Shown in pieces: positions 6,998-23,284 of a DNA stretch of 64,000 bases (within the stretch, counting starts at the first letter, position 1; the number at the start of each line of letters is the position of its first letter). The position numbers and the translations under genes are program-made. The DNA is from a phage. The stretch lies in the NCBI GenBank assembly GCA_025611195.1, contig GCA_025611195.1_4718.1. The stretch is one strand, 5' to 3'. The notes beneath the pieces were generated by a model. It worked only from the letters and a program-made list of their open reading frames with translations. It was not told the DNA's origin and did no database searches.

Positions 6998-9900
6998 TTA
7001 TTTAGCGTCGTTAAAGTAAATATCAACAGCTCGTTCCGTTGCGTAGAGGAGACCAAGATTCACAGTCCCAACCACTTCCGGTGAACCGATGATACGGTTA
7101 GCGATACTGGTACCACTGAAGATAGCATCAAGGGTGTGCCCGTCTTCGGTTTTGTTCACACCATGACCCACGGAAGAGACAACGGATTTCGCTTGTGCTG
7201 CGAAGGTACCTTTATCACCCATCCCCGCACCAAGGTCGTAACGCATGAAAATACGGATGGCGATCTGGTTCTCGCCTAACGGATTACCGTCTATTCTCAC
7301 GTTACTGTTATTGATACGCCCCGTTGTTGCTTCGTTGAGTTTCAGTTCCTTGACACGTTTAGCTCGCGCTTTATCCGCATCGCCGACGAGCGCCGCCATG
7401 GTTTCACTCATATCCTCAATCTGAGCGCGGTACAGTACATCGATCTGTACAACTTCACCATGAACGTCAGCACGTGGGTTATACTGACTCATACGACGTA
7501 ATGCTTCAACGGCTTCCTGACTCTCATCACTCAGATCGGTTGCAATCGGTTCTTCCAGTGTCGCAAGGATCGTTCGCGGTTCAACGTGATCGCCGATTTT
7601 CACGAGACCGCGAATGTTGAGATGGGCGTCAACGATAAGCGTACGACTCTTAATCGATGGTGTTACGAGACGTTCAGCAAGATTGTCGAAGATATACGAA
7701 CTGTCCTCGTGGGTCTCTGGAATATCCAGAATACCGACAAGAGACAGAACACCAGCGCGCCAAACAACCTGACCTGGGTTCCACCAGTCGCGTTTAAAAT
7801 AAAGACGATGGAAAACCACCACATCCTGATCCTTAACGCGATCCCCGACTTTATAATCGGTAATGAGATCGTGAGGATAATACTTACCCGGTCCTTTCCC
7901 GATTATTGTCCCGAGCTGGAAAACCTCTTCCCCTAACTCTGGATCGTCGTATTGTACCGTAAGCGCAGTTTTAGTGACCTTCTTAACAACACCATCGCCT
8001 TGGGCAGCTGCTGCAAAGAGTTTACCAACACGATGCGCGATAACAGTCTCACCGCCTGTACGCCATGGTTGCACATCGTAACCTTCAGCAGCAATCATGC
8101 GGTTGTGTTGGATTCCGACGAAGACCAGACGTTTTCCATCATCACGGTCTACAGCCGGAACAGCTAACGCCGACGTACTCATTACCGATGAGATACCATC
8201 TGTCTTTTCATCGAATGGTCGTGTTTCACCATACACCGACACGATATTAGCATTAGGTGCAAGGTAAGCAGAGATACCCACATCCCCACTATCTTTCGTA
8301 CCCTCTGACACAATACCAACATCGGACTTGTCGTATTCACGATCGCGTGCGCGTCGAAGCGATGTCTTTGAACGACCCCCGATACCAGTCATCGTCGCTT
8401 CTTCACCCTGCTTGATATCCAACATCGGGTTGGTTTCATCGATCACGATGGAAGCACTGTCGTCAAGAATTTGGTTCCAGACGCTCACCGGACTGATTGA
8501 GATCTTCTGTCGGTTGCCTTGGCTGCTGTTCTCATTCTGACGTATAGCACCAACCAGGTCCTTATACACCAATTCAGCGAACTTATCGTACGTTTTAAAA
8601 CGTTGGTAGTTCACATCGTTCGTGTTAGGAGCCCAATCATCCAGAAGCAGTTCGACGGCACGCAGTAACAACATGGCGAAATCGGTAGGTTCTCCCATGT
8701 TCTGCAACAACGTACGGCTTACTGGATCAACGAAAAGACGCTCCATGAGTTCAAGTTCGCGTAAATGGCGAACCTTAAGTCCAGCCCCATCGACAACGTT
8801 AAAATAGATATCTCGATTGTCAAAAGCGCCGCGAGCGTAACCAATGTAGTTACGGTATTCGTTAAACCCACCCAGCAACAACGTCGTCATGCGGTCGTCT
8901 TTACTGAAAATCAAACTTTCGTCGTCAAAGCTCACCGCGAATTCATCTGCTGCTAAACCCATACGAGAACCGCGAGGTACCGTGCGATAGTTTGCTTTAA
9001 GATGTTCTAATAACGGAGTAAGTCCACCCAGATAACTTAGAACAATACCGACCGGAATACGTACACCCATGAATTCAAGATCGGCGGCTTCGATCGGCAT
9101 CTTAGCCGCATTGATGCCGAAGAAATCAGGGAACGTCCCTACAGGTGTTGGTGTTTGTCCCGACTGACAGATATAGAGCTGATTGCGCTCATCGATCGCT
9201 AGGAATTCGTCAGATGTGTTACGTGCGAACGTCAGGAGTCCTTCGGCTAACTGTTCGTTGAACCGATCTTCCCCAATGAACTCCGGTAGCGTTTTTATAT
9301 CGAGACGTATATCCCAATCGGCAAATTGGATTTGGGTATAATTGCGTGCAAGCACTGCGAAGTAATACGGGACTTTGACAGCCGGATCAAAGACGTTACC
9401 ACGTTTTAACGTGGTTAAGGGTGAGGACTTATCGTAATACATCGCCGTAAGTTGACGTGTTAGCCAACGACCAGCGTTATTAACGACGCGCTCTGAACGT
9501 TTAACAAACACCTTACCGTAGGCGGTACTCAACGCAACTTCGGATGACGATACCTTTCTAATAGGTTTATCGACGCGTTGTTTACGCATCCGGTACTTGA
9601 TACCGTTAACGACATAAATGCCGTCCTTACGAACCTTCGGCAACATCACCGGGAACGTGGTCGGGACACCGCCTACGGGAGCCAGTTTAATCGTGATGAC
9701 TTGATAATCTCCCATCACGTCAACAACATCTTCAACTTTATATCCCGTAACAGGGTAACCCGCCTGTTGTACCGCAACAACAGCAGCTGCGATGTCCTTT
9801 TGCATTACGTGTTCGACGTAATGTTTGTCCCACACCGCAAGCGTCGATTTACACAAGCTCTTATCGACGATAACGTCCGCTTCAGGCATAACCTTTGCGG

Positions 9901-11344
9901 GAGCTAATTTTGCGGCTTTTGGTTTGACTTCAACATACTCGGCGAGCGTGAGTCCAGAACCGTCAGGTGCTTCGATTTCATGGATGGCGTCAGCGTTACG
10001 CATCGCTGCTTTATATTGGACGCCACTTAACTGCCCCGCATCGGCCAGATCGCTCGCGCGCACCAACACCGCATCCGATAACGACTGAATATACTCACCG
10101 TGTGTTTTTGGTAACGTTGCCGCGTCAAAGACATCAACCTTTTCTTCTTCGGTATCGTCGGTAACGACTTCGAAGAGATCGTCGGTAATGTCCTGATCTT
10201 CATCAGGTTGGAAATCCGGTTGTACTTCTACCCCGGGTACTTCACGGACATCTTCGAACGTGCGTTCTACAACGGCGTTCCATGCATCAGCGTCATCGTC
10301 TTCATCCGACCCACCAACCAACTCCGCTTCTAACTCATCGGGGTCAAGAACAGTGGCCAGATCCTCACCGTTAGGAAGCACGACGTCACGATCGTCGTAT
10401 TCCGCATCCGGGTCGTCGGTAAGAATATCTCGCTCTTGACGAAGAACCTGTTCCTCTTCTTGTTTCTGTTCTTCTTCATTCGCGCTCTGCGACCACAAAC
10501 GTGTTACCGCCATCATCCAACGACGCTGGAAGGTTTCAAGTGTCGTTTTATCGAGTTCTTCCCCTTCCTTTACAAGCCCGGTACGCCATTCCTCCAGCAA
10601 GCCGAGATTCAGCGTAAAGAAGTACACACCGTCTGTAAATACAACGTTAAGCTTATCTAGCGTGGCTCTGTCTAACGAAGCCATCGTGCTGTTCTCACGA
10701 TCGGTTCCCAACCAGCGGAAGAAGTCAAAGAACGACAGCTCCTCTGGCGTGGCGAAATTCATGAGGTTGTTGCGGGTCGGTGCCTGTTGCGTGGTGCGCA
10801 TCAACGAAATCTTCGGCAATGTTGTCGGTAAACGGAACAACAAAAAGTGTTGACGATCGCTTTGCTGTGCGATTTCGTTGGCTTTCGACCAAATTGTTTT
10901 ACGTACGTTGAACCATTCATCATACCAACGGGTGAGCGTTGGACGATAGATGTACATGTGGTTAAGATGCGCGTAGTTAGCAACGATCTGAGCGTTGATG
11001 TTTTTCTCCACCGTACTTAGATCGGTAACCAAACGAAAACGACGATGCGATGCACGATAATCCAATTTCGCTCGTGGAAGTTGGAATCGTTGATCACGTC
11101 GAGGTGCGCCTTGTTTGGTTGCGAGATCATCCGCAAACGAAATCCATAGTTGAGCATTTTCTTTACTCAGCATGTATTCGTTTTCTGGAGGACCTATCAA
11201 TGATGGATCCGTTGCGGTGTAATGATAGACAGCATAACGCGGCAGCTGCAATAGCTGCACTAAACGTAATCTTGGTGATAGTAGCTCTTGGTAGCGTCTG
11301 ACACCGAACTGTCGGTAGTAATCAAGGTATTTAAGTTTTGCCAT
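6998..11344 (-). CDS. RNA polymerase beta'-like subunit, C-terminal fragment (1448 aa)
   Basis: NNAGRWLTRQLTAM resembles the beta' bridge helix (ANSGYLTRRLVDV). Roughly 100-aa highly acidic insertion. GGAG RBS lies inside the end of the upstream ORF. Confidence 0.5.
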   Translation of the reverse strand: MAKLKYLDYYRQFGVRRYQELLSPRLRLVQLLQLPRYAVYHYTATDPSLIGPPENEYMLSKENAQLWISFADDLATKQGAPRRDQRFQLPRAKLDYRASHRRFRLVTDLSTVEKNINAQIVANYAHLNHMYIYRPTLTRWYDEWFNVRKTIWSKANEIAQQSDRQHFLLFRLPTTLPKISLMRTTQQAPTRNNLMNFATPEELSFFDFFRWLGTDRENSTMASLDRATLDKLNVVFTDGVYFFTLNLGLLEEWRTGLVKEGEELDKTTLETFQRRWMMAVTRLWSQSANEEEQKQEEEQVLRQERDILTDDPDAEYDDRDVVLPNGEDLATVLDPDELEAELVGGSDEDDDADAWNAVVERTFEDVREVPGVEVQPDFQPDEDQDITDDLFEVVTDDTEEEKVDVFDAATLPKTHGEYIQSLSDAVLVRASDLADAGQLSGVQYKAAMRNADAIHEIEAPDGSGLTLAEYVEVKPKAAKLAPAKVMPEADVIVDKSLCKSTLAVWDKHYVEHVMQKDIAAAVVAVQQAGYPVTGYKVEDVVDVMGDYQVITIKLAPVGGVPTTFPVMLPKVRKDGIYVVNGIKYRMRKQRVDKPIRKVSSSEVALSTAYGKVFVKRSERVVNNAGRWLTRQLTAMYYDKSSPLTTLKRGNVFDPAVKVPYYFAVLARNYTQIQFADWDIRLDIKTLPEFIGEDRFNEQLAEGLLTFARNTSDEFLAIDERNQLYICQSGQTPTPVGTFPDFFGINAAKMPIEAADLEFMGVRIPVGIVLSYLGGLTPLLEHLKANYRTVPRGSRMGLAADEFAVSFDDESLIFSKDDRMTTLLLGGFNEYRNYIGYARGAFDNRDIYFNVVDGAGLKVRHLRELELMERLFVDPVSRTLLQNMGEPTDFAMLLLRAVELLLDDWAPNTNDVNYQRFKTYDKFAELVYKDLVGAIRQNENSSQGNRQKISISPVSVWNQILDDSASIVIDETNPMLDIKQGEEATMTGIGGRSKTSLRRARDREYDKSDVGIVSEGTKDSGDVGISAYLAPNANIVSVYGETRPFDEKTDGISSVMSTSALAVPAVDRDDGKRLVFVGIQHNRMIAAEGYDVQPWRTGGETVIAHRVGKLFAAAAQGDGVVKKVTKTALTVQYDDPELGEEVFQLGTIIGKGPGKYYPHDLITDYKVGDRVKDQDVVVFHRLYFKRDWWNPGQVVWRAGVLSLVGILDIPETHEDSSYIFDNLAERLVTPSIKSRTLIVDAHLNIRGLVKIGDHVEPRTILATLEEPIATDLSDESQEAVEALRRMSQYNPRADVHGEVVQIDVLYRAQIEDMSETMAALVGDADKARAKRVKELKLNEATTGRINNSNVRIDGNPLGENQIAIRIFMRYDLGAGMGDKGTFAAQAKSVVSSVGHGVNKTEDGHTLDAIFSGTSIANRIIGSPEVVGTVNLGLLYATERAVDIYFNDAK

Positions 11345-11347
11345 GGG

Positions 11348-12994
11348 TTAGGCTCCACGAGGTCCCGTTAAGTTGCGTAATAGGAACGCAACCGTATCGT
11401 AACCAATATCAATGTTGAATTTATTTTTACCACTTACCCAGAAAGCTCGCTTCTTGTGCGAGTTGGTAATTTCGTCAATAGCTTCCATGGAATAAAGAAC
11501 GTTAACCGAGACCGTATCACCATCAAAGTCCCCACCAAGTCCGGCAAGGTATGGGGCTGGGACAATCGTCGTTTCTACGAACGATGCATTAGGTAACCAG
11601 TCGGGGTATTCCCATGCGATAAATCGTTCATCCGTTATTGGTTCCCAGTTACTATCCAGTTCGGTTTTCGGTTTTGCGGCAACGGTTGTACGTGCGTAAC
11701 AGGTCAACGGAATGACGGATTGCATACCGGATACCGGATAACGTGTTACCATCGCAGCCAGGTTATTCCAGTATTTATATCCGGCGATGTACACTAATTC
11801 GGTATACGTGATAGGGTGAACATCCGCACCAGGCTTATTCAGCATCTCTGGAGGTAATTCACTCATGCCACGGAATAACCGAAACGAATCATTATTTACA
11901 TAGACGAGACAAAGATAACGTCCATTAACCATGATAGGTTCATTGCGCACACCTGGATCGCTTAAGGTGTTCAATAAACGTTCTATTCCGTCCCACGTTG
12001 TAAAGTCATCGATGGTGTCTGGATCAAGCGTGACGCGCTCACGTTCCATCGTTTCGGTATCGATAAGCTCAACTTCGGTAACATCACGGACAAATATTTC
12101 CTGCAAAATACCGGTACGTAACGCGTGTTGCGTCACGGGTAGGGCGGCTTTGCTCATCTGGTATAACCCTAACTGAACAGCTGTGCAAGAAGGCTGGTTA
12201 GGCGACCCTAGTACCTCCGTTGTGGGGTTAATTGCCGAAATAACGTTACGGGTTGAGTTCCAAACGCGACGTGAGCCGAACTTACCTTGGAAGATCCCTT
12301 TCTTACCCTGGAACATATCCAACAACAAAGCGTAGATATCGTTAAATGTTCTCTGTAAGCTCCAGCGTTGACCGTCGTAAACGGGATCGGAATAATCTTT
12401 TAATCCATCAGGGACGGTGTTAGAAATTGCAAGGAAACGACGATACAACTCCGTGATTTCTTGCTCGCTTTCATACCCGCCTTCTTTTACTTCTATTTCA
12501 CGTAAGCCCGCAGGTAAAACCAGTAAGTGACGGGTCATCGCTTTGAACATGTTCTCTTCGACAACTTTAATTCGTAGCTCTCGTTGAGCTGAACCCGTTG
12601 AAACGAACTTGATATCCGCGACGTGTTGTGCAAAGAACCCGTATCCTGTTTGTCCTGTTAACGCATCAGACGCAACGAAGTCGCGTTGTTCAGGATCCCA
12701 ACGAGCATACGCCTTTCCTGACATGATATCACCATAGAGGTGTTTTAGTCGAATGAGGCGGTCGTAAATGACAGGGTGCAGGATTTCAACTTTGCATTCA
12801 ATCACCGCAAATCGACGATCTCGATCTTCACTACCTGCACTACCAAAGATGGTGTAAGAATAGAAACCATCATCGTGGAAATTACCGGTGCTTGGGTCAC
12901 GAATGCTCATGCTCGTGATCTTGGGGAGAAAACGTAACTGCTGTTTATCGAGGTGCAAAATACTAATATTAAACGGCTCTCTGACTTTAGCCAT
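11348..12994 (-). CDS. RNA polymerase beta'-like subunit, N-terminal fragment with DFDGD catalytic motif
   Basis: C-terminal GGDFDGDTVSVNVLYSMEA matches beta' NADFDGDQMAVHVPLTLEA. Start placed at ATG 12994 (GAGGAG RBS) not ORF-track 13036. Confidence 0.6.
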   Translation of the reverse strand: MAKVREPFNISILHLDKQQLRFLPKITSMSIRDPSTGNFHDDGFYSYTIFGSAGSEDRDRRFAVIECKVEILHPVIYDRLIRLKHLYGDIMSGKAYARWDPEQRDFVASDALTGQTGYGFFAQHVADIKFVSTGSAQRELRIKVVEENMFKAMTRHLLVLPAGLREIEVKEGGYESEQEITELYRRFLAISNTVPDGLKDYSDPVYDGQRWSLQRTFNDIYALLLDMFQGKKGIFQGKFGSRRVWNSTRNVISAINPTTEVLGSPNQPSCTAVQLGLYQMSKAALPVTQHALRTGILQEIFVRDVTEVELIDTETMERERVTLDPDTIDDFTTWDGIERLLNTLSDPGVRNEPIMVNGRYLCLVYVNNDSFRLFRGMSELPPEMLNKPGADVHPITYTELVYIAGYKYWNNLAAMVTRYPVSGMQSVIPLTCYARTTVAAKPKTELDSNWEPITDERFIAWEYPDWLPNASFVETTIVPAPYLAGLGGDFDGDTVSVNVLYSMEAIDEITNSHKKRAFWVSGKNKFNIDIGYDTVAFLLRNLTGPRGA

Positions 12995-13239
12995 GGAGAC
13001 ACTCCTCTTTACCACCACCGGCTGCGGCGGTATCATCTGAACACACGAGAGACGTAATGGGTGACGCCATCACCCATCGCTTCCTTGCTTGAGGCGAGGA
13101 AGTTATTAGGTTACGTACCTGCCTGATTTTATCAGGTGGGCGATGTGTGAAGTTACGCTTCAACATTATCAATGCCGAAGGTAAGCTTCGTGCATCACGT
13201 TCCAACGTAACATGGGAACGTATCGAACTGGAGGTATAC

Positions 13240-16200
13240 ATGGTAGATAAAACCCGTGTTGAGGGTGATGATAATTGGGATAACTGGGATGATGACTTCT
13301 CCCTGGATCTCGATTTTAACGAACCCAAAGACGATCGTAAACCGATAACACGCTTTGCGGTAGGAGCGGTTAAAGGTGCTGCTGAGGATCTTACTTCCTA
13401 CGAAAGAATGAAGGAGATCGCCAGAAACGCATTGCCTAAGGGCTATAGCGACGGTATGGATCTTATTGATTCCGCCGTCGGATCCACGAAGGAACTATAC
13501 AATGAAGCCGTTCGTGACGTTCTTCCTAAGGTCCAAAGCTCAAAACGGTTAGCTGCACAACTGACCAAGAAATACCGTGCAAGCATGCCCGATTTCTCGA
13601 AGAAAATTCTTGAGCAATGGGAGCAAGAAGCCAAGGAAGAAGACGAACGTAAACAAGCTGAAGAAACTCTTCGTCAACGCATGGCGAGCGCGGGGGACGA
13701 TGAGATCGCCCGCAAGGTTGCCGAGGCATTAGGCGAATCAGCAAACCAAAGCGCAGATCAGTTCGCTGAACAGCAAGCGAAAGAAAGTATCCGTGACGAT
13801 ATCGCTGACAAACGGTACGCTGTAACCAACAAACAAATGAGTGCGATGCAAGAAGGCGTCGCCAAGATGGTTGGTTTCAACAATGAATTCGCTGCACGCT
13901 ACATGCGTAAAAGCCTGGAACTGAAATATCGTTCCTTAGCGATTCAACGTGCAAGTTTCGACCAGCATAAAAAGTTAGCCGAAGTCTATATCGGTTTATT
14001 ACAAAACATCCAGAAGAATACGGCTTTACCTGATGCGGCTAAAGCAAAAATGTCGGAAGAATTCCGTCGTAGTGCGTACCAACGTTTCTTTGGTAATGCG
14101 TTAGATGCGATGAGTTCTTTCGAGAACCGTTTCTTTGCTGATGTTAAGAAGAACCTTGCCACCAACGCATTAGGCGCTTTAAAAGGCGTCGTGTCTGGCG
14201 CAAACGATGCGTTATACGGTTTAAACGAAGCACGTGACTCGATGTCCATGATGGACGGGATGGGGTCAGAAGGCGATATTAAGGAAATGCAAGGAAAGAT
14301 GTTGGGTCAGTTCATTGGCTCAACTGTCGCACCATGGATGGCTAATAAAGGTAGGATGGCGTTACGCGATTTAGCAAAACGTCACCCCAATGCTAAATTC
14401 GCTAGCGCGTTAAAAGCCGTGGATCAAGGTGGTGAGGCTGCCGCATACACAACGCGTAATCTCGGTAAACTGCTCCAGGAAGATATTCGTAAGAACGAAT
14501 TCAATCTTAGCGATCCGTTTTACAAGCAATTGTTACGCGGTGCGGGGCGTTGGGCGTTCAACATGGACAGCGGACGTAACTTCCGTGTGATGAACGACAC
14601 CGCTGAAACATTGGCGGAACAAACGTCTTTCGACGGTTTAACCTACCGCAGTATCAATGAAGTTATTCCTGGCTTTCTTGCACGCATTCTGAAAAGCAGT
14701 GAGGGTATCCGCACCGGAAACAGCGATCCAGACTACGAGGTCTATGACGGCATCAGCGGGCAATTCGTGTCTCAGCGTACGCGTGAACAAAGCGTCAACG
14801 ACACACTGTTTAACAAACGTACATTTGGTTATTACGCCAGCCGTTTCAACGAGGTTATCTCGGTCATCGATCCCGATAAACAATTATCGGAAAAAGCCAG
14901 AAAGGCGCTGGCTAAGCAGTTGGCACGAGATAGCGACGCGAACATCGCATTCGACCCGGCTCGTTTTACGGATGAAAGCAACTTCGATCGTAGTATCGAT
15001 CGTGACGCTATTAAGGAACTTTCCGCGTACTTTCGTGACCGTTATGGTATTCGTGACGATATCAACGATAAAGGCGAACGTCATCAGGTCATTGGAAACC
15101 GCGGACAATATTACACGGAACGTAACCGAGCTGATCTTCGCTACGGTAATCTGAAATCTTTACAACCGGATATCCAGCGTAACCTTAACCTACTGAAACG
15201 TACTGGTGACGTCCAATATCTGGAACGTATCGGTATTGTGACGAGAAATAGCGACGGAAGCTACTCGGTTAATCACGATCGTTATTTCTCTGAAATTGAT
15301 CAATACATCGACCGACCAGAGTACGCTGACCGTGGCGATGTCAATACGCGATTAACCTCTCAGGAAACAAGAGCGCTGGCGCTGGGTTACCGTGACGCAA
15401 AACCATCAACAGGCGACGTCCAAAATGCAGGTCTGCCGAACATCGAACGTAAGGTTGCTGGAACAGTAACCATTGATGAAAACATCGGCTACGATAAATG
15501 GTGGAACGACACGGGTGTTATCACCACATCGCTTGAAGAACAGAATCGAGCATGGCAAGAACTCTATCTCGAAGCGCTGTCTGAAGCATCCGAACAACGT
15601 GTTGAAATGCTTACGTTACTGAAAGCCATTTCTGAGAAAGACTGGTCTAATAACGTTTCACTGGATGGCGAAGATGTACCTGAAGGTACGGCACCTATTT
15701 CCTTTATCGATCGCGCCAAACAAAAACTCGGTGCGCGTAACCTCTTTAAAGGCGGCCGTAATCTCCTCTGGAAAGGAATTAAAAATACCGCACGATTGGG
15801 TGTTAAAGGCGCACGTTGGGGTGCAGAACGTACATTAGGTAGTTTGGTAAATTCCGGCCGACGCATTATCAACTTCAACCGATTCGTGTTCGGTGCGTTA
15901 TCCAAAGTCGATCAGGTTCCGTTTGACATTTACGTTAAAGGGGAATCCCAACCACGCATACTGGCTGCCAAACTTCGTCAGGGGTTATACTTCGACGAAG
16001 CGACAGGAAAAGCCGTAAAACGAATGAAGGATATCAAAGGCCCACTCGTTGATGCAGATGGAAACATCGTAATCAGCAACGAGGATATCGAGAAAGGGTT
16101 GGTCACTCGCGCTGGTCGTGCCTTTGAGAATTCAGGACTTAAAGCGTGGGCGCATGAAGGTCTTAATGGAATAACGACGGTCTTAAGTCTGCCGCGGATG

Positions 16201-19200
16201 TTAAAACGCGGTGCGGTTGAGATCTACAAACAGCTTGACAAAACGCCCGACGTTTACGTCAAGGGAGAATCAACGCCTCGTCTATTATCCATGGTGTTAG
16301 CAGCGGGTGGGTATTTCCGTCGCTCTGATGGACAAACCATCAAAAATCTTGAAGACATCGATGGCGATGTTGTTGATGCACAAGGTAACGTCGTACTTAC
16401 GCTTGCCGACATGCAGAAAGGGCTTGTCGATAAATACGGTAAAGCGATTCGTCGCTTAAAAGAAAAGCTCATCAACTTCGGTGTAAAAGCTTTTACATTA
16501 CCGTTAACGCTGCTACGTAAGACAAAGGACATCCTTAAAACCCTTCCAGGTAAAACCGTTAACGGCCTACGACGGATGGGATTAAATTTCCAATCACCTG
16601 ACGCATTATTGGTGGGAACAACGTCGAGCATGGTAGATCGCCTCGACGCTATTTACCAGCTTCTCGACCAACGTATGCCGGGTGGTGACAGGGATTATCG
16701 CGATTGGAATGGGGATGGTGTTCGAGAAGGATCGTTGGAAGACCTGAAACGTAAACGTGCAGCCAAGGAAAACGGTAAGGATGACACCGGCAAAGATTCC
16801 AATAAAGGAGAAGAAAAGGAGAAGAAACGAGGATTACTCGGAAGCCTTTTCGATATGCTTGGCGATACCGCATTAGGTAAACGACTCATGGCGAGTCCGC
16901 TTGGAAAAATTCTAGGTGGTCTTGGGGCGGTGTTAAGCGGCGGAGCATCGTTAACCGGATTGTTGGGCAAGGGTCTCATTAGTGGAACCGGCGCGCTAGT
17001 CAAGGGAGGACTAAGTGCGGCAGGATGGTTAGGCCGTGGTGCGTTAATGGCGGGCGGGGCCGCATTGAACGCTGTTGGTGGTTTATCGGGATTAGGCGCA
17101 TTCCTTATATCACCTGTTGGGCTTGCTATTGCTGGCGGCGCATTGGCTGCTTATGCAGGATGGAAGATCTATCAACATTTCGCCGAGAAGCCCGACCCGA
17201 TGCAGAAGCTCCGTCTTATTGCATACGGTGCAAAAGGGGACGATAAAGACTTCAATAAGAAGCTGCTTGCGACAGAAACATACCTCACCGACCATGTGGT
17301 TATGACCGGGGATACCATCGGATTCGATCCGAAAGCGGATTCTGAAAAGATTCTCGAAATCTGGGAATTGTCCCTGGAAGATTCCGACCGAATGAACGAA
17401 TGGAAACGCTGGTATCTGCATCGTTTTATTCCTGTTTTCGCTCGTGCGTACAAACTCTGGAAAGAGCATATGCCGGACGAGAAGAAATACATGGAAATGG
17501 ATAAATATCCGAACGGTGAGAACAAGGTGAAATGGTCGGAAGCGTTTATCTGGCCTTCTGATAGTCCTGACGGCCCGTATTACGTCGAAGCTAACCCGTT
17601 GGGTTCTTCTGGTGCGACGCGTTATATTGCTGGTCAAGACGTCAAAACCTTGATGCTGAAACAACTCGAAGCCATCAAGAAAGAGTACCAGAATCAGATT
17701 AAGCAATACACTCATGATGAGGCTATTGCTGATTGGTCACGGATGTCTGACACACAACGTAAATCCGTTGCACCTAACGCATTACGTGGTCAGAAAGCGT
17801 CGTTACGTTTTAACGATAAACGTTACAACAGCGCTGGCGCTAAAGGACGACAGAAGCTTGACGCAACCGCCGTTATTGAAAGCGTAGACCGCCGTGGTAG
17901 GAAATGGGTTGCTGGCGGGTACATCGATGAACTCACCAGTCTCCGTGTTCGCGCGTACGGTATCAAGGTTCCGTTGTTAAGTCAGATAAAAGTGCTGATG
18001 GAACTCGAAGACGCTGTGGAACCTGGTGTAGTCGCTGAAGGTAAAGGGGTTAAATACGGTGGCGATCTTGTCGCGCTCTACAAGAAATTCGCGACGAAGT
18101 TCGGAAGAGACGTTAACAGCAAGCAGGATCAGGATATCTGGTTTGCTTGGATGAATAACCGTTTCCTGCCTGTCTTTTTAACCTATTACCAACAAGTTAG
18201 CGACATGGGCGGTCAAGGTCTTCTGTCCGACGTGGTACAGAACCTGAAAGACAGCCAACGTTGGGAAATCGGTGAAGCACTTGTCGCAACGCAATACCGT
18301 GATGAGAAAGGTGCACTACAGCCTGTATGGACCTGGAATAGTTGTGGTTTCTCCGGTACTGAAGCTAACACCACCAGCAGTTCAACAAAGAGCCAACTCG
18401 ATCTGTTAAAAGAATATGCGGATAAAGAGAAGGTTCGTGAGAAGAACGCGGAAGCATCGCAAGAGGATACCGAGAAATTATCGAAGATCCAAGAGCTGAT
18501 GATGAAGCAGGCTGGGTACGAGAAGAAAGACGGTGTTTGGCAGAAGAAATCTCGCATTACCGGTGGGATGAGTAACGCCGAAGCGAATTACAACCCCAAT
18601 GGGAATAGGGTAGGTGCAAGCAGCTTTACTGCTTCGGCTACTTCCAGTGCTGGGTTGGGGTCAACCGGCGATCTTACCGGATTGCCTAACATGGGCTTAC
18701 AGAAACCTGCAACGGGACCAGGTCCTGAAGCTGGGCGACGTACGCTTGTTAAATCTGCTGTGAAACACGGTATTACCGATCCAATGGAAATGGCGATGTT
18801 CCTTGCGAACATCGAACATGAATCGGGGAACTACAGTCACGTACGTGAGGGGAACTATAAGACACCAGAGCGTCTTAAACAGGTCTTCCCTTACAAATTC
18901 CGTGATGTGCAGGATGCCGCACAAACGATCAGCATGGGACCGGAAGCGGTATTCGAACGTGTGTATGGTAATCGTAAAGATCTAGGAAACACACAGAAAG
19001 GGGACGGGGCGAAGTATTTAGGACGTGGCTTCATTCAGGTTACCGGTAAAGCTAACTACGCTCGTCTGTCCAAGACCTTGAATAAGGATCTTGTCAGCGA
19101 TCCGACCTACCTGGAAACGCCGGAAGGTGCGGCGGAAGGTAGTGTCGCATGGTGGCTCAACCGAGGTAACGTGTTACGCGATCCCGCAAAACGGGGTGAC

Positions 19201-19905
19201 GTACGCCAAGTTCGTTATCTGGTTAACGGTGGCTATAACGGATTACGTGATGTTGAACAACGTTCAGCTTATTGGATTCAGGCGGCTAAGAACGGCACCC
19301 TGAAGAAAATGATGGACGAGTTATCAGGGTCAACATCAGACGATCAAGCTGAAGGACCGACCACCGCCGAGCAGGTTAAGAACGAAGCAGCACAAGAGGC
19401 AAACGGAACACCTGCTGTAAGCAACGATCCGCAAGCCCCAGTATCTTCTACTACCCCTGAAGCTAAACCGTCTGCGGCTGCCGGGACGGCCCCAGCACCT
19501 GGAGAAGCATCACCAACGCCTGGAAGTTTCGAAACAGCAAAAGCCGCGGCAGGACAACCGACATCAACACCAGCGCCTAGCGATTTGCCGTCAAACCCGG
19601 GCGCAAATCGAGGGATATCGGTTCCGAATACGCCTGCACAGGTTGCGCAGTCTGCGACACAAACATCGGTTGCAAGTGAGAACTTCTACGGTAGCGCTGG
19701 TGAAATTCTCCGACAGCAGCTGACCACACAGCAGAACATCGAGAAGAACACCGGTAGAACGAATGAACTTATTTCGGAATTAATCCAAGCCGTTAAGGGT
19801 TCTTCTATCGGTAAGGGTTCTGCAGGTCCTTCTCAACAACAGACGATGTCGCTACCTAATCGTCCGCAAGGAATCTCTCCAACACGGACAAGGTACGCAC
19901 AGTAG
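13240..19905 (+). CDS. giant virion-associated protein with C-terminal GH19-like peptidoglycan hydrolase domain
   Basis: 2221 aa from ATG 13240 (GGAGG RBS). Gly-rich hydrophobic segment (GLLGSLFDMLG...AIAGGALAAYAGW). C-terminal FLANIEHESGNY...YLGRGFIQVTGKANY resembles GH19 lysozyme motifs. Confidence 0.65.
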   Translation: MVDKTRVEGDDNWDNWDDDFSLDLDFNEPKDDRKPITRFAVGAVKGAAEDLTSYERMKEIARNALPKGYSDGMDLIDSAVGSTKELYNEAVRDVLPKVQSSKRLAAQLTKKYRASMPDFSKKILEQWEQEAKEEDERKQAEETLRQRMASAGDDEIARKVAEALGESANQSADQFAEQQAKESIRDDIADKRYAVTNKQMSAMQEGVAKMVGFNNEFAARYMRKSLELKYRSLAIQRASFDQHKKLAEVYIGLLQNIQKNTALPDAAKAKMSEEFRRSAYQRFFGNALDAMSSFENRFFADVKKNLATNALGALKGVVSGANDALYGLNEARDSMSMMDGMGSEGDIKEMQGKMLGQFIGSTVAPWMANKGRMALRDLAKRHPNAKFASALKAVDQGGEAAAYTTRNLGKLLQEDIRKNEFNLSDPFYKQLLRGAGRWAFNMDSGRNFRVMNDTAETLAEQTSFDGLTYRSINEVIPGFLARILKSSEGIRTGNSDPDYEVYDGISGQFVSQRTREQSVNDTLFNKRTFGYYASRFNEVISVIDPDKQLSEKARKALAKQLARDSDANIAFDPARFTDESNFDRSIDRDAIKELSAYFRDRYGIRDDINDKGERHQVIGNRGQYYTERNRADLRYGNLKSLQPDIQRNLNLLKRTGDVQYLERIGIVTRNSDGSYSVNHDRYFSEIDQYIDRPEYADRGDVNTRLTSQETRALALGYRDAKPSTGDVQNAGLPNIERKVAGTVTIDENIGYDKWWNDTGVITTSLEEQNRAWQELYLEALSEASEQRVEMLTLLKAISEKDWSNNVSLDGEDVPEGTAPISFIDRAKQKLGARNLFKGGRNLLWKGIKNTARLGVKGARWGAERTLGSLVNSGRRIINFNRFVFGALSKVDQVPFDIYVKGESQPRILAAKLRQGLYFDEATGKAVKRMKDIKGPLVDADGNIVISNEDIEKGLVTRAGRAFENSGLKAWAHEGLNGITTVLSLPRMLKRGAVEIYKQLDKTPDVYVKGESTPRLLSMVLAAGGYFRRSDGQTIKNLEDIDGDVVDAQGNVVLTLADMQKGLVDKYGKAIRRLKEKLINFGVKAFTLPLTLLRKTKDILKTLPGKTVNGLRRMGLNFQSPDALLVGTTSSMVDRLDAIYQLLDQRMPGGDRDYRDWNGDGVREGSLEDLKRKRAAKENGKDDTGKDSNKGEEKEKKRGLLGSLFDMLGDTALGKRLMASPLGKILGGLGAVLSGGASLTGLLGKGLISGTGALVKGGLSAAGWLGRGALMAGGAALNAVGGLSGLGAFLISPVGLAIAGGALAAYAGWKIYQHFAEKPDPMQKLRLIAYGAKGDDKDFNKKLLATETYLTDHVVMTGDTIGFDPKADSEKILEIWELSLEDSDRMNEWKRWYLHRFIPVFARAYKLWKEHMPDEKKYMEMDKYPNGENKVKWSEAFIWPSDSPDGPYYVEANPLGSSGATRYIAGQDVKTLMLKQLEAIKKEYQNQIKQYTHDEAIADWSRMSDTQRKSVAPNALRGQKASLRFNDKRYNSAGAKGRQKLDATAVIESVDRRGRKWVAGGYIDELTSLRVRAYGIKVPLLSQIKVLMELEDAVEPGVVAEGKGVKYGGDLVALYKKFATKFGRDVNSKQDQDIWFAWMNNRFLPVFLTYYQQVSDMGGQGLLSDVVQNLKDSQRWEIGEALVATQYRDEKGALQPVWTWNSCGFSGTEANTTSSSTKSQLDLLKEYADKEKVREKNAEASQEDTEKLSKIQELMMKQAGYEKKDGVWQKKSRITGGMSNAEANYNPNGNRVGASSFTASATSSAGLGSTGDLTGLPNMGLQKPATGPGPEAGRRTLVKSAVKHGITDPMEMAMFLANIEHESGNYSHVREGNYKTPERLKQVFPYKFRDVQDAAQTISMGPEAVFERVYGNRKDLGNTQKGDGAKYLGRGFIQVTGKANYARLSKTLNKDLVSDPTYLETPEGAAEGSVAWWLNRGNVLRDPAKRGDVRQVRYLVNGGYNGLRDVEQRSAYWIQAAKNGTLKKMMDELSGSTSDDQAEGPTTAEQVKNEAAQEANGTPAVSNDPQAPVSSTTPEAKPSAAAGTAPAPGEASPTPGSFETAKAAAGQPTSTPAPSDLPSNPGANRGISVPNTPAQVAQSATQTSVASENFYGSAGEILRQQLTTQQNIEKNTGRTNELISELIQAVKGSSIGKGSAGPSQQQTMSLPNRPQGISPTRTRYAQ

Positions 19906-19954: not shown

Positions 19955-22096
19955 ATGGGTATTCTTGTTCAAAACGCCCTAATCACCAAACAGGCGTTTT
20001 TATTACCAGGCGATAGCAGCACGCTTAGTGCCGACATGATTAAAGCGAGACATACACCGTATTCCTACGATAACGTCGATGATACCACTTTAGGCGGGAA
20101 CTGGGTGCTTAACCCGCCACCGCAATATACGAAATTTGCTGATATCAAAGAACGTCGGCGTGCGGTTATGCCGGGATCAACGGGCATGGGCCGAGGCTAT
20201 AGTGAAAGCATTAACAGCTTTAAAGAAGTCGTTACATTACGATTCGGTAAACCACGCTTTACAGGCGCAAGTATCTTCTTTACCGATTTCTACGATGCGG
20301 ATGTTGCCGTAACGGTTAAAACCGGTCGGGATCCCGGTATTCTTTATTACGCAGCCAAAGCGTATACCACCGTTCTTTCTTACCTCACACCGCTACCTTA
20401 CTTGTATATGGTTGGACGTATTGGTCGATATTTCCTGGGTAAGCCTACCAGTCAATATTACTATCAAGTACCAACCATGCACGTGTATTGGGCGTCTTTC
20501 CAGACGTTGGTAAACCAAACAGCGATAAACATGGGTCTTATCGCCGGTGCTGGTAAAGATAAAGGCTATGTGGAAGAAGGGGGTACCGTACTCCACCAAT
20601 ATTCGATCGGTGGTCAGAACGTTGAAGAATTCATCAACTACGCCTCTAAGACGCTACCGGGGATTTATAAGAAAGGTGGTGGGATCGATATCTACCAGAT
20701 CGCAACACGACGTCAGCGTATACAGAACGCATGGGTACGTCGTATTCAATCCATGATGGAAAACGATTACTCGTCTTACGAGGAGTTCTGGAACGATCTT
20801 GATAAACGACTTGATAGCGGAGCATTTCCATCGGATGTTACCGGTCGTACGTTAACGCAGTATCTCGCCGACACACAGAAATCTGCTGTTTACAGTGCGA
20901 CAGCTGGTGATAATAAACAAACGATGGACGACCTTTTATTCGGAAGGGCCTCATACACCAACAAGGATGCTGATGCCAATTTCAAAATCTCAGCGGCTAC
21001 CTCCGACGGTGGTACATCAGCGCAAAGCCAGGGTACGACAGCCAATGTCGGTAATTCGACATCAGGGACAACGCAGGCTGCAACAGCAGCATCGACGGCT
21101 GGAGGTGCGAACGTACAGAGCAAAGGAATCGGGCAAACGAACGCAGCCGAAGAAGCTACGTTTCTTGATCTGATGGATGCTGAACTGGCTGACGGTGCTC
21201 AGTTTATCAGTTTTCGTGTCGATTCTGTTACCAGTGTAACCGAAACGTTTTCAAACAGCGCTTCAGAAAGTTCTATCGCGCAGACGATGAATAGCCGTGC
21301 GCAAGCGAACATCGAACGTCGTTTCACCCTCTCCGGTGGTAATACAGGTTGGGCTGTACTAGACGAAGCAATCAAAGCCGGTTCCGATCTCGTCAACGGG
21401 GCTATTTCCGGGATGGGTCTGGATGGTATTTTTGGTGCCTTCATGGGTTCCGGCTTCGCAGACATTCCGAAATTCTATTCCGGATCATCGGTAAGTCTAC
21501 CGCGTGCAGACCTGACGATGGAATTGCGTTCCTGGAGTGGGGATCGCTGGTCGATCTTTACGAACCTCATGGTACCTCTTTTAGCTATCCTTGCAGGTGG
21601 TTTACCTCAAGCTACCGGTAAATCGTCCTACGGGATGCCGTTCATGTGTGAATGTTATATTCCCGGTAAAGTCCAGATTAAAATGGGTCTTATCGATAAC
21701 ATCACTGTGACACGCCATGTTGGAAACGTACCATCGACACGCGAGCGATTACCGTTGGGCATCGATGTCAGCTTCAGCGTTTATGACCTGTCGTCCATCG
21801 TCGCAATGCCAATCACAACGACAGCCGCATCGATCGCAAAATTAGATCCTCGTGGCTTCTTAAGTGATCTTCTTGCTGACGATACTCCACTCAACAACTA
21901 TCTTGCTGTATTATCGGCATTGACGCTTACGGAACAAGTTTACATGATTCCTGATTTAAGTCGTCGCATGCATAAAACCATGGCTGATATCGATAGTTTC
22001 TGGAGTAAAGGTAATTTTGCTAGCTGGTTGTCCGACACCATGCCTGGCAGGATAGCATCAGGGCTGTTATGGAAACGTACAGAACGACCGTTCTGA
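19955..22096 (+). CDS. hypothetical protein (713 aa), possibly virion-associated
   Basis: Long ORF with GAGGA RBS directly after the giant gene. Ser/Thr/Gly-rich middle region. Confidence 0.55.
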   Translation: MGILVQNALITKQAFLLPGDSSTLSADMIKARHTPYSYDNVDDTTLGGNWVLNPPPQYTKFADIKERRRAVMPGSTGMGRGYSESINSFKEVVTLRFGKPRFTGASIFFTDFYDADVAVTVKTGRDPGILYYAAKAYTTVLSYLTPLPYLYMVGRIGRYFLGKPTSQYYYQVPTMHVYWASFQTLVNQTAINMGLIAGAGKDKGYVEEGGTVLHQYSIGGQNVEEFINYASKTLPGIYKKGGGIDIYQIATRRQRIQNAWVRRIQSMMENDYSSYEEFWNDLDKRLDSGAFPSDVTGRTLTQYLADTQKSAVYSATAGDNKQTMDDLLFGRASYTNKDADANFKISAATSDGGTSAQSQGTTANVGNSTSGTTQAATAASTAGGANVQSKGIGQTNAAEEATFLDLMDAELADGAQFISFRVDSVTSVTETFSNSASESSIAQTMNSRAQANIERRFTLSGGNTGWAVLDEAIKAGSDLVNGAISGMGLDGIFGAFMGSGFADIPKFYSGSSVSLPRADLTMELRSWSGDRWSIFTNLMVPLLAILAGGLPQATGKSSYGMPFMCECYIPGKVQIKMGLIDNITVTRHVGNVPSTRERLPLGIDVSFSVYDLSSIVAMPITTTAASIAKLDPRGFLSDLLADDTPLNNYLAVLSALTLTEQVYMIPDLSRRMHKTMADIDSFWSKGNFASWLSDTMPGRIASGLLWKRTERPF

Positions 22097-23218: not shown

Positions 23219-23256
23219 CACGTCCTCCTGAAAAAGAAAAAAGAAATACGGCATAA

Positions 23257-23284
23257 AGCCTACCCACACAATGGTGGGTAGGCT
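23257..23284 (-). terminator. intrinsic terminator
   Basis: Stem AGCCTACCCAC/GTGGGTAGGCT followed on minus strand by a T-rich tract. Confidence 0.55.

What the first reader, a model, noticed from the sequence alone, without database searches (positions are those of the whole stretch)
13240..19905. Giant 2221-aa protein with Gly-rich hydrophobic segment and C-terminal GH19-like muralytic domain
Seen: a glycine-rich hydrophobic stretch (GLLGSLFDMLG ... AIAGGALAAYAGW) around residue 1250 and a C-terminal domain with FLANIEHESGNY and YLGRGFIQVTGKANY, resembling GH19 lysozyme/chitinase motifs. Established (recollection): phiKZ gp181 is a virion protein of about 2237 aa with a C-terminal peptidoglycan hydrolase domain, encoded next to virion RNAP genes. 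The divergent arrangement with the beta' genes here mirrors that neighbourhood.
Basis: partly seen in the sequence, partly recalled or inferred. Interest (0 to 1): 0.55.

Follow-up and report, generated by a model that had tools for sequence, protein, structure and literature searches.

The report
Jumbo-phage giant tail lysin, probable tape measure
This 2221-residue gene is the already-known giant tail protein of phiKZ-like jumbo phages (98% identical to phage Goslar gp204, ortholog of phiKZ gp181), a probable tail tape measure carrying a membrane-inserting segment and a cell-wall-cutting GH19 lysozyme, so the finding is correct but not new.

Summary
ORF 13240-19905 (+) encodes 2221 aa. It has a Gly-rich hydrophobic block at residues 1198-1308 and a GH19-type lysozyme domain at about 1828-2021, with both catalytic glutamates intact.

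The window comes from a Goslar-like E. coli jumbo phage. The protein is 98% identical to Goslar gp204 and is the syntenic ortholog of phiKZ gp181, EL gp183 and SPN3US gp239.

Published data place the orthologs in the virion. Goslar gp204 is present at roughly 3-8 copies. SPN3US gp239 is missing from tailless particles. phiKZ orf181 is essential.

Recent cryo-EM atlases assign the baseplate spike to other proteins and do not model this one. The old "puncturing needle" reading therefore fails, and the tape-measure reading remains an inference.

I add four points:
- About 120 metagenomic relatives and orthologs in 243 cultured jumbo-phage records share one scaffold: N-terminal helical region, two repeat families, hydrophobic block, C-terminal helix.
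- The enzymatic cassette has been swapped repeatedly (SLT in phiKZ, GH19 here, also M23, CHAP, VanY, VgrG3-like).
- There is no detectable homology to any known tape-measure family.
- Tail length does not scale simply with protein length in the two phages that could be compared.

Verdict: already known and ordinary, with an unresolved mechanism.

The parts
13240..19905 (+). Complete CDS of the giant tail protein (2221 aa plus stop). Ortholog of Goslar gp204, phiKZ gp181, EL gp183 and SPN3US gp239.
   Evidence: 96.1% nt and 98.1% aa identity to Goslar. 42 nonsynonymous against 205 synonymous codon differences, no indels.
13230..13234 (+). Shine-Dalgarno GGAGG, 5 nt upstream of the ATG at 13240.
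13240..13629 (+). Conserved N-terminal segment (aa 1-130; KDDRKP and ALPKGY motifs).
   Evidence: Found in 126 of 127 family members. Invariant R33, P66 and Y87.
13342..14715 (+). Long-helix region (aa 35-492). It includes a predicted single helix at 118-259, at low confidence.
   Evidence: AF2 model, 80% helix in the first 500 residues. No PDB fold match.
14737..15339 (+). Confidently predicted mixed alpha/beta globular domain (aa ~500-700), function unknown. The preceding EVIPGFLARIL..IRTG motif is nearly universal.
   Evidence: pLDDT 78-91. The core motif occurs in 126 of 127 members. Invariant P477, G478, L480, I483 and R491.
15904..16164 (+). R1 repeat, copy a (aa 889-975): small beta-rich unit, YVKGES.PR.L ... 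VDA.GN.V.
   Evidence: Internal duplication, E 7e-23 and 42% identity. pLDDT 65-79.
16231..16467 (+). R1 repeat, copy b (aa 998-1076).
   Evidence: R1 is present in 122 of 127 members at 1-6 copies.
16831..17163 (+). Gly-rich hydrophobic block (aa 1198-1308). Charge-free runs at 1224-1243 and 1267-1308 are putative membrane-inserting segments.
   Evidence: An equivalent block lies about 1200-1400 residues from the N-terminus in all seven cultured-phage orthologs, and one is found in most metagenomic relatives. This block was not included in either AF2 model.
17176..17499 (+). R2 domain, copy a (aa 1313-1420; LR..AYG ... W..RF.PVF), immediately after the hydrophobic block.
   Evidence: Duplication E 3e-5. 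pLDDT about 80-88. Present in 114 of 127 members. No PDB match.
17923..18210 (+). R2 domain, copy b (aa 1562-1657).
   Evidence: pLDDT 80-95.
18721..19302 (+). GH19-type lysozyme domain (aa 1828-2021). Catalytic E1861 is at nt 18820-18822, E1870 at nt 18847-18849, and T1935 (water-positioning) at nt 19042-19044.
19333..19629 (+). Pro/Ala/Ser/Thr-rich disordered linker (aa 2032-2130).
   Evidence: pLDDT below 50. Composition. The Goslar virion peptide AAAGQPTSTPAPSDLPSNPGANR maps to aa 2102-2124.
19633..19797 (+). C-terminal long helix (aa 2132-2186) carrying the family-wide motif L..L.VQ......L.
19955..22096 (+). Downstream co-directional gene (713 aa). Ortholog of Goslar gp203 and phiKZ gp182, the hexameric tail-tube initiator or spacer ring.
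11348..13036 (-). Divergent upstream gene: virion RNA polymerase small subunit (562 aa, beta'-N-like by homology to SPN3US gp240).
   Evidence: phrog_2986 E 3e-179..
6998..11344 (-). Virion RNA polymerase large subunit (1448 aa, beta-N-like by homology to SPN3US gp241).
   Evidence: phrog_3148 E 0..

Best explanation
The gene encodes the giant, low-copy tail-internal protein of phiKZ-like (Chimalliviridae) jumbo phages. I take it to be their tape-measure-type protein fused to an infection toolkit. Shown: it is the ortholog of Goslar gp204, phiKZ gp181 and SPN3US gp239. It carries an intact GH19 lysozyme active site. Its orthologs are virion and tail proteins, and one is essential. Inferred: a few copies (3 or 6) lie inside the unusually wide tail-tube lumen. 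The conserved termini anchor at the tube ends, with the C-terminal end near the gp203 initiator ring and hub, as in other tape measures. On sheath contraction the protein is expelled ahead of the DNA. The GH19 domain cuts the glycan strands of peptidoglycan locally. The Gly-rich hydrophobic block (aa 1198-1308) inserts into the inner membrane to anchor or open the passage for DNA and co-injected proteins. Only the enzymatic cassette is interchangeable across the family, so any wall-cutting activity serves.
For: Identity: 98.1% aa identity to Goslar gp204, phrog_3201 at E 1e-296, and collinear homology to SL2, EL, RAY, Moabite, RisingSun, D6 and SPN3US orthologs. Enzyme: E 5e-23 to solved GH19 endolysins, with E1861, E1870 and T1935 aligned, and fold matches. 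Virion and tail location of orthologs: Goslar MS found 34 peptides at an estimated 3.4-8 copies per virion, mapping to aa 393-406, 771-787, 969-986 and 2102-2124. [quoted passage not shown] Tape-measure-like features: the N-terminal half is 64% helical, 80% in the first 500 aa, with very long helices. The gene immediately precedes the tube-initiator gene in all 9 loci examined, mirroring T4 genes 29, 48, 54. Neither virion atlas names any other tape measure. Three to six copies would fill only 14-28% of a 68-A lumen. The hydrophobic block and both termini are conserved family-wide while cassettes vary. Purifying selection acts along the whole length.
Against: No sequence or profile similarity to any tape-measure family (hhalign against T4 gp29 gives probability 0.7%; no Pfam TMP hit even at E<=10). 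The protein is not modelled or mentioned in the Goslar (28 proteins) or phiKZ (40 proteins) cryo-EM structures, so a lumen location is unproven. Ruler scaling is not seen in the only two phages with counted rings. Goslar has the longer tube (46 x 39.16 A = 1801 A against 43 x 37.73 A = 1622 A) but the slightly shorter protein (2221 against 2237 aa) and the shorter N-terminal part (1196 against 1273 aa). As a continuous helix, 2221 aa would be about twice the tube length. Much of the protein is globular (aa 500-700, R1, R2, GH19). Membrane insertion of the Gly-rich block rests on hydropathy alone. All experimental data come from orthologs, not from this phage.
Confidence: 0.62

Rival explanations
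1. Tail-internal ejected lysin and membrane anchor that does not set tail length. The protein sits in the tube or hub lumen and is expelled at infection, but tail length is fixed by something else.
For: No proportionality between protein length and tube length in Goslar against phiKZ. No homology to tape-measure families. Much of the chain is globular rather than an extended coiled coil.
Against: No other tape-measure candidate is reported in either virion atlas. The gene position next to the tube initiator matches T4 genes 29 and 48. The helical N-terminal half is conserved. Two independent groups call the orthologs tape measures.
Confidence: 0.22
2. Component of the central baseplate spike, a T4 gp5-like needle-shaped cell-puncturing device. 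This was the original proposal for phiKZ gp181.
For: Older literature assigns gp181 to a needle-like puncturing device as a putative trimer (review PMC5380687 citing Briers 2008 and Fokine 2008). It carries a lysozyme-type domain, as T4 gp5 does.
Against: The cryo-EM structures assign the spike, spike cap or hub, and initiator rings to other proteins: Goslar gp13, gp48, gp203 and gp62; phiKZ gp164, gp163.1, gp101, gp182 and gp88. The Goslar authors state that all hub, spike and inner-baseplate density is accounted for. There is no OB-fold, beta-helix or gp5-type Pfam hit. The predicted structure is helical.
Confidence: 0.05
3. Head-packaged ejection protein, like T7 gp16 (an internal core protein with an SLT domain that builds a trans-envelope conduit).
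For: Low copy number, a lysin domain plus hydrophobic segments, adjacency to genes for head-packaged vRNAP subunits, and no place in the tail models.
Against: The SPN3US ortholog gp239 is absent from DNA-filled tailless heads, while the vRNAP subunits are present. The gene is co-directional with and adjacent to the tube-initiator gene in all loci. The Goslar authors label it a tail protein in their Table S4.
Confidence: 0.05
4. Tail fibre or receptor-binding protein, as annotated in RefSeq and PHROGs. Alternatively the phage's lysis endolysin or a chitinase, as annotated in some records.
For: Database labels only: 'tail fiber protein' (phrog_3201, RefSeq) and 'endolysin' or 'chitinase' in several records.
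Against: No fibre-type fold or receptor-binding domain. The protein is helical with an internal hydrophobic block. Goslar fibres are attributed to DUF7941 proteins. A 249-kDa virion protein is not a lysis endolysin, and phiKZ has a separate endolysin, gp144. GH19 phage enzymes of this clade are peptidoglycan lysins (PDB hits).
Confidence: 0.03

Closest known systems
Escherichia phage Goslar gp204 (YP_009820915.1; 'tail fiber protein' or 'putative chitinase')
   Same: Same gene: 98.1% aa and 96.1% nt identity, same length from the ATG, no indels, same neighbours. Detected in purified Goslar virions at about 3-8 copies.
   Different: 42 amino-acid substitutions. RefSeq annotates a GTG start 93 nt upstream. 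Goslar has an intron plus ORF insertion in the neighbouring vRNAP gene that this window lacks.
Pseudomonas phage phiKZ gp181 (structural peptidoglycan hydrolase, 2237 aa); represented here by the Phikzvirus SL2 ortholog
   Same: Collinear scaffold: N-terminal region, R1, hydrophobic block, two R2 domains, C-terminal enzyme, linker. Divergent vRNAP genes upstream and a gp182-type gene downstream. Essential, and proposed as the tape measure. Muralytic activity has been shown.
   Different: About 24% identity. The enzymatic cassette is SLT (PF01464), not GH19. Three R1 copies against two. The hydrophobic block starts at aa 1274 against 1197.
Salmonella phage SPN3US gp239 ('tape measure protein' in Thomas et al. 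2016)
   Same: Collinear homolog with the same synteny (gp238, gp239, divergent gp240 beta'N, gp241 betaN). Experimentally a tail protein, since it is missing from tailless particles.
   Different: 2372 aa, SLT cassette, about 24% identity over the aligned parts.
Phage T5 Pb2 and other tape measure proteins that carry muralytic domains and hydrophobic segments (T4 gp29 as the myovirus reference)
   Same: Works alike by inference: a long helical tail-internal protein, a hydrophobic membrane-inserting segment, a wall-degrading domain, and a gene next to tube-initiator or hub genes (T4 order 29, 48, 54 verified). Pb2 is listed as a muralytic tail protein in PMC5380687. The details of Pb2 are from my own knowledge.
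   Different: No detectable sequence or profile homology. About 2-4 times larger. Contains extra globular domains (aa 500-700, R1, R2). Not shown to set tail length.
GH19 phage endolysins (SPN1S endolysin 4ok7, 9eoi, 7r6s, 9ms6)
   Same: Homologous catalytic domain with a conserved Glu-Glu pair 9 residues apart and the GRGxIQxT motif. Same fold.
   Different: Those are free-standing lysis enzymes of about 200-340 aa. Here the domain is a cassette at aa 1828-2021 of a 2221-aa virion protein.

Membership tests
phiKZ gp181 / Goslar gp204 giant tail protein family (phrog_3201) | Collinear homology of the N-terminal scaffold | tested here: met
   phrog_3201 at E 1e-296. tblastn to orthologs in 243 jumbo-phage records. 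N-terminal and core motifs in 126 of 127 members.
phiKZ gp181 / Goslar gp204 giant tail protein family (phrog_3201) | Synteny: divergent vRNAP subunit genes upstream, gp182/gp203-type tube-initiator gene immediately downstream | tested here: met
phiKZ gp181 / Goslar gp204 giant tail protein family (phrog_3201) | Peptidoglycan-degrading cassette in the C-terminal third | tested here: met
   GH19 at aa 1828-2021. Family cassettes vary: SLT, GH19, M23, CHAP, VanY, VgrG3-like.
phiKZ gp181 / Goslar gp204 giant tail protein family (phrog_3201) | Physical presence in the virion tail | not testable with these tools
   Literature on orthologs only: Goslar MS and SPN3US tailless particles.
Glycoside hydrolase family 19 (lysozyme/endolysin clade) | Pfam PF00182 at gathering threshold | tested here: not met
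   18.1 bits against a cut-off of 25.5, E 0.0024, and only profile positions 103-141 matched. The model is built mainly on chitinases.
Glycoside hydrolase family 19 (lysozyme/endolysin clade) | Significant homology to structurally solved GH19 enzymes over the whole domain | tested here: met
   E 5e-23 to 5e-19 against 7r6s, 9eoi, 9ms6, 9ms7 and 4ok7, covering about 170-180 residues. phrog_181 at E 2.6e-52.
Glycoside hydrolase family 19 (lysozyme/endolysin clade) | Catalytic Glu (HES motif), second Glu about 9 residues downstream, Ser/Thr of GRGxIQxT | tested here: met
   E1861, E1870 and T1935 align with the corresponding residues of the solved endolysins. The catalytic roles come from established GH19 knowledge.
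Glycoside hydrolase family 19 (lysozyme/endolysin clade) | GH19 fold | tested here: met
   Foldseek probability 1.00 to 7r6s, 4ok7, 9eoi and 8p8e, with TM (target) 0.41-0.59. The domain model is of moderate confidence, pLDDT 60-87.
Glycoside hydrolase family 19 (lysozyme/endolysin clade) | Muralytic activity | not testable with these tools
   Needs a zymogram or turbidity assay of the aa ~1820-2030 fragment.
Tail tape measure proteins | Sequence or profile homology to a known TMP family (Pfam TMP models, T4 gp29) | tested here: not met
   No TMP family hit at E<=10. hhalign of the family profile against T4 gp29 gives probability 0.7%.
Tail tape measure proteins | Predominantly long alpha-helical, extended architecture | tested here: inconclusive
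   The N-terminal half is 64% helix with helices up to 142 residues, but at low pLDDT, and it is interrupted by globular units. The C-terminal half is mostly globular.
Tail tape measure proteins | Gene adjacent to tube-initiator or hub genes | tested here: met
   Immediately upstream of the gp203-type initiator gene in 9 of 9 loci. T4 order 29, 48, 54 verified.
Tail tape measure proteins | Protein length determines tail length | tested here: inconclusive
   Only two phages have counted tube rings, and they show no proportionality. A real test needs engineered length variants.
Tail tape measure proteins | Located in the tail-tube lumen at 3 or 6 copies | not testable with these tools
   The MS estimate of 3.4-8 copies is compatible. 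A volume check shows it would fit. It is not resolved in the cryo-EM maps.
Tail fibre / receptor-binding proteins (database label) | Fibrous beta-structure or receptor-binding domain | tested here: not met
   No such Pfam domain. The helical prediction has no fibre fold match.
T4 gp5-type central spike lysozyme | OB-fold plus beta-helix spike architecture, located at the baseplate tip | tested here: not met
   No matching domains. The spike positions are occupied by other proteins in Goslar and phiKZ.

The most novel reading that the evidence does not exclude
The conserved Gly-rich hydrophobic block and the R2 domains that follow it may not form a simple inner-membrane channel. [quoted passage not shown] On this reading the giant tail protein would be the first structural component of a phage-made organelle. 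The evidence does not exclude it. The scaffold was found only in phiKZ-like jumbo phages. It is the protein expected to leave the tube first. The EPI vesicle is reported to derive from the inner membrane, with the phiKZ inner tube attached to it during injection (PMC13282480; PMC10541120). No virion protein has yet been assigned this role. Against it, hydrophobic segments are common in tape measures of phages that make no vesicle.
Probability: 0.12. Interest if true: 0.8.

Novelty: already known. Interest (0 to 1): 0.27.

Why it matters
As a finding it mostly confirms what is known. This is the Goslar allele of the phiKZ gp181 family, whose muralytic activity, virion location and essentiality are published for orthologs.

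Its residual value lies in three places.

First, this is the largest protein of these phages, yet it is missing from both recent virion atlases. Its location and its proposed ruler function are still inferences.

Second, the repeated swapping of the enzymatic cassette on a fixed scaffold (GH19, SLT, M23, CHAP, VanY, VgrG3-like) is a natural library of virion-delivered wall-degrading modules, of interest for engineered lysins.

Third, the public annotations are inconsistent: 'tail fiber', 'endolysin', 'chitinase'. They should be harmonised to something like 'tail tape-measure-like protein with peptidoglycan hydrolase domain'.

Tried and rejected
- Pfam, NCBIfam and PDB sequence searches of the whole protein gave nothing outside the GH19 region.
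- Pfam at E<=10 on the N-terminal half (aa 1-1196) and the middle part (aa 1197-1820) gave only noise.
- Profile comparison with T4 gp29 was negative.
- Foldseek of the N-terminal model against the PDB gave nothing significant.
- BFVD returned only orthologs, so the aa 500-700 domain, R1 and R2 remain unassigned.
- A self-BLAST of the full protein reported only the identity hit. Segment-wise comparison was needed to show the repeats.
- The sigma-70 promoter and intrinsic terminator scan showed no excess over shuffles, and no terminator between the giant gene and the next gene. This is uninformative for phages that use their own RNA polymerases.
- The ruler test by comparing Goslar and phiKZ was not supportive and is too small (n=2) to decide.
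- A search for GH19-region tryptic peptides in the Goslar MS table found none, but the stored supplement is truncated, so this says nothing.
- The Goslar and phiKZ structure papers and the RAY core-genome preprint do not mention the protein by name.
- One Pfam call failed on the residue limit and one paper look-up failed on the term limit.

Full report
**1. The observation**

An ORF spans 13147-19905 on the + strand. The ATG at 13240 lies 5 nt after a GGAGG and gives 2221 aa. A stop-free run of this length has a chance probability of about 6e-52.

Residues 1201-1300 are 28% Gly. They contain the only strongly hydrophobic, charge-free stretches of the protein, at 1224-1243 and 1267-1308.

**2. 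Source and identity**

The window is a close relative of Escherichia phage Goslar. The gene is 96.1% identical in nucleotides and 98.1% in amino acids. There are 205 synonymous and 42 nonsynonymous codon differences and no indels, so the gene is under purifying selection along its whole length.

PHROGs places residues 11-1173 in phrog_3201 at E 1e-296. The neighbourhood is that of phiKZ-like phages. Two virion RNA polymerase subunit genes lie divergently upstream: 11348-13036 (phrog_2986) and 6998-11344 (phrog_3148). A 713-aa gene lies immediately downstream.

The same triad occurs in SL2 (a Phikzvirus, where the giant protein is exactly 2237 aa), EL, RAY, Moabite, RisingSun, D6 and SPN3US. 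It also occurs in three distant metagenomic contigs.

**3. The enzymatic domain**

Pfam Glyco_hydro_19 is sub-threshold. The domain alone nevertheless matches solved GH19 endolysins at E 5e-23 to 5e-19 over about 175 residues. E1861 (in HES), E1870 (nine residues later) and T1935 (in GRGFIQVT) align with the corresponding residues of those endolysins. Their roles as the catalytic Glu pair and the water-positioning residue come from established knowledge of GH19. The AF2 model of the C-terminal half matches the same structures by Foldseek. The GH19 reading is therefore correct. 'Chitinase' in the GenBank record is a family label, not the likely substrate.

**4. Architecture**

The N-terminal half is predicted to be 64% helical, and 80% helical in the first 500 residues. 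It has very long helices at low confidence, as expected for a coiled-coil protein modelled as a monomer. A confident globular domain at aa ~500-700 and two small beta-rich R1 repeats interrupt it (889-975 and 998-1076; duplication E 7e-23).

After the hydrophobic block come two copies of a confidently folded R2 domain (1313-1420 and 1562-1657; pLDDT 80-95). Then follow the GH19 domain, a ~100-residue Pro/Ala/Ser/Thr linker and a long terminal helix. Neither the aa 500-700 domain, R1 nor R2 matches any Pfam family or solved structure. The hydrophobic block itself was not included in either model.

**5. The family**

A search of 5.8 billion proteins gave 120 giant relatives of 1500-3856 aa. The scaffold alone finds 243 phage records, all of them jumbo phages of 211-322 kb. 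I analysed 127 sequences: the 120 relatives, this protein and six cultured-phage orthologs.

- The N-terminal segment and the EVIPGFLARIL core motif are each present in 126 of the 127.
- R1 is present in 122, at 1-6 copies.
- R2 is present in 114.
- A Gly-rich hydrophobic block is present in essentially all. It lies 1197-1391 residues from the N-terminus in the seven cultured-phage orthologs.
- A C-terminal helix motif is also retained across the family.

The enzymatic cassette, by contrast, is interchangeable. SLT occurs in 73 sequences and GH19 in 14, never together. Others carry M23, CHAP with Phage_lysozyme2, VanY with SLT, or a T6SS VgrG3-like C-terminal domain. On a neighbour-joining tree of the scaffold, GH19 needs at least 7 state changes, so the exchange happened repeatedly (the tree is rough). 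phiKZ-type, Moabite, D6 and SPN3US orthologs carry SLT. EL, RAY, RisingSun and Goslar carry GH19.

**6. What the literature adds for orthologs**

- Goslar virion MS (bioRxiv 10.64898/2026.04.21.720040, Table S4) detects YP_009820915.1 with 34 peptides at an estimated 3.4-8 copies per virion, labelled 'Tail protein'. Peptides map to aa 393-406, 771-787, 969-986 and 2102-2124, so both ends of the protein are in particles.
- The main text of that paper never mentions the protein. Its 28-protein model assigns the spike to gp13, the spike cap to gp48, the initiator rings to gp203 and gp62, and a lower wedge protein to gp202. The authors state that all hub, spike and inner-baseplate density is accounted for.
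- The phiKZ atlas (PMC13250141) likewise omits gp181. It assigns the spike to gp164 and gp163.1, the hub to gp101 and the spacer ring to gp182.
- In SPN3US, gp239 is named the tape measure protein. It is among the proteins missing from DNA-filled tailless particles, whereas the vRNAP subunits remain. I verified that gp239 is a collinear, syntenic ortholog.
- An older review records the original view of gp181 as a needle-like puncturing device and reports its high muralytic activity.

**7. Mechanism**

The best-supported reading is a tape-measure-type, tail-internal protein that is expelled first at infection. It would then cut peptidoglycan with its GH19 domain and insert its hydrophobic block into the inner membrane. 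This is analogous to phage T5 Pb2 (my own knowledge for the details).

Support beyond the literature:
- The N-terminal half is helical.
- The copy number is low.
- The gene sits directly upstream of the tube-initiator gene, as T4 gene 29 sits upstream of genes 48 and 54.
- Geometrically it fits. Three to six copies occupy 14-28% of a 68-A lumen over 1801 A.

Weaknesses:
- There is no homology to any tape-measure family.
- There is no structural placement.
- Scaling fails in the one available comparison. Goslar has the longer tube but the slightly shorter protein and the shorter N-terminal part than phiKZ.

I therefore keep 'ejected tail lysin that is not the ruler' as a serious rival. I regard the spike, tail-fibre, endolysin and head-ejection-protein readings as largely excluded.

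**8. Novelty and verdict**

The gene, its family, its muralytic nature, its virion location and even its tape-measure label are already in the literature or databases for orthologs. The Goslar allele differs by only 42 residues.

What remains open is where the protein sits and whether it measures the tail. It is also open whether its hydrophobic block participates in forming the EPI vesicle, which is derived from the inner membrane with the tail tube attached. That speculative reading is not excluded, but nothing here supports it directly.

Noticed in passing
window 11521-11529 (within and next to the vRNAP gene at 11348-13036, - strand); Goslar L001 10239-12289: Goslar carries a ~2.05 kb insertion here. 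It is annotated as a group I intron plus gp206 (similar to phiKZ ORF179) and splits the small vRNAP subunit gene. The window lacks the insertion and has one intact 562-aa ORF, so this phage is an intron-free allele.
   Followed up: partly
window 13147-13239: RefSeq Goslar gp204 and the 615-member protein cluster P0001 start at a GTG 93 nt upstream (2252 aa). The GGAGG at 13230-13234 and the aligned ortholog N-termini favour the ATG at 13240, so the upstream extension is probably an annotation artefact.
   Followed up: partly
window 15904-16164 and 16231-16467 (aa 889-975, 998-1076): The R1 repeat is a ~75-80-aa beta-rich unit present in 122 of 127 family members. Its copy number ranges from 1 to 6 (2 here, 3 in phiKZ-type SL2 and in D6). 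It is a possible length-adjusting module, and its function is unknown.
   Followed up: partly
window 17176-17499 and 17923-18210 (aa 1313-1420, 1562-1657): The R2 domain is duplicated and confidently predicted (pLDDT 80-95). It carries the conserved motifs R..(A/Q)YG and W..RF.PV(F/Y)L and always follows the hydrophobic block directly. It has no Pfam family and no PDB fold match.
   Followed up: partly
window 14737-15339 (aa ~500-700): A confidently predicted mixed alpha/beta globular domain (pLDDT 78-91) sits in the middle of the helical N-terminal half. The nearly invariant EVIPGFLARIL..IRTG motif precedes it. No known homolog was found.
   Followed up: partly
homolog P0017 aa 805-857 (also P0011, P0030, P0040, P0042, P0109): Some family members carry a Peptidase_S74 (endosialidase intramolecular chaperone, self-cleaving) domain in the middle of the scaffold. 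This hints that those proteins may be auto-processed.
   Followed up: no
homologs P0006, P0056, P0057, P0064 (Caballeronia and Paraburkholderia genome records; contigs 144-493 kb): Family members occur in bacterial genome assemblies, one of them named 'cell pole-organizing protein PopZ'. They probably reflect jumbo-phage genomes carried in or assembled with the bacterial genome, and a misannotation.
   Followed up: no
243 phage records: Orthologs are annotated inconsistently as tail fiber, tail lysozyme, endolysin, chitinase, glycoside hydrolase, peptidoglycan hydrolase, virion structural protein or hypothetical protein. None of the 60 records listed is annotated as a tape measure.
   Followed up: yes
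window 19955-22096 and 22151-23269: By near-identity to Goslar, the downstream genes are the tail-tube initiator (spacer) ring protein gp203 and a lower-wedge baseplate protein gp202. The giant gene therefore heads a small tail and baseplate cluster placed back-to-back with head-packaged vRNAP genes.
   Followed up: partly
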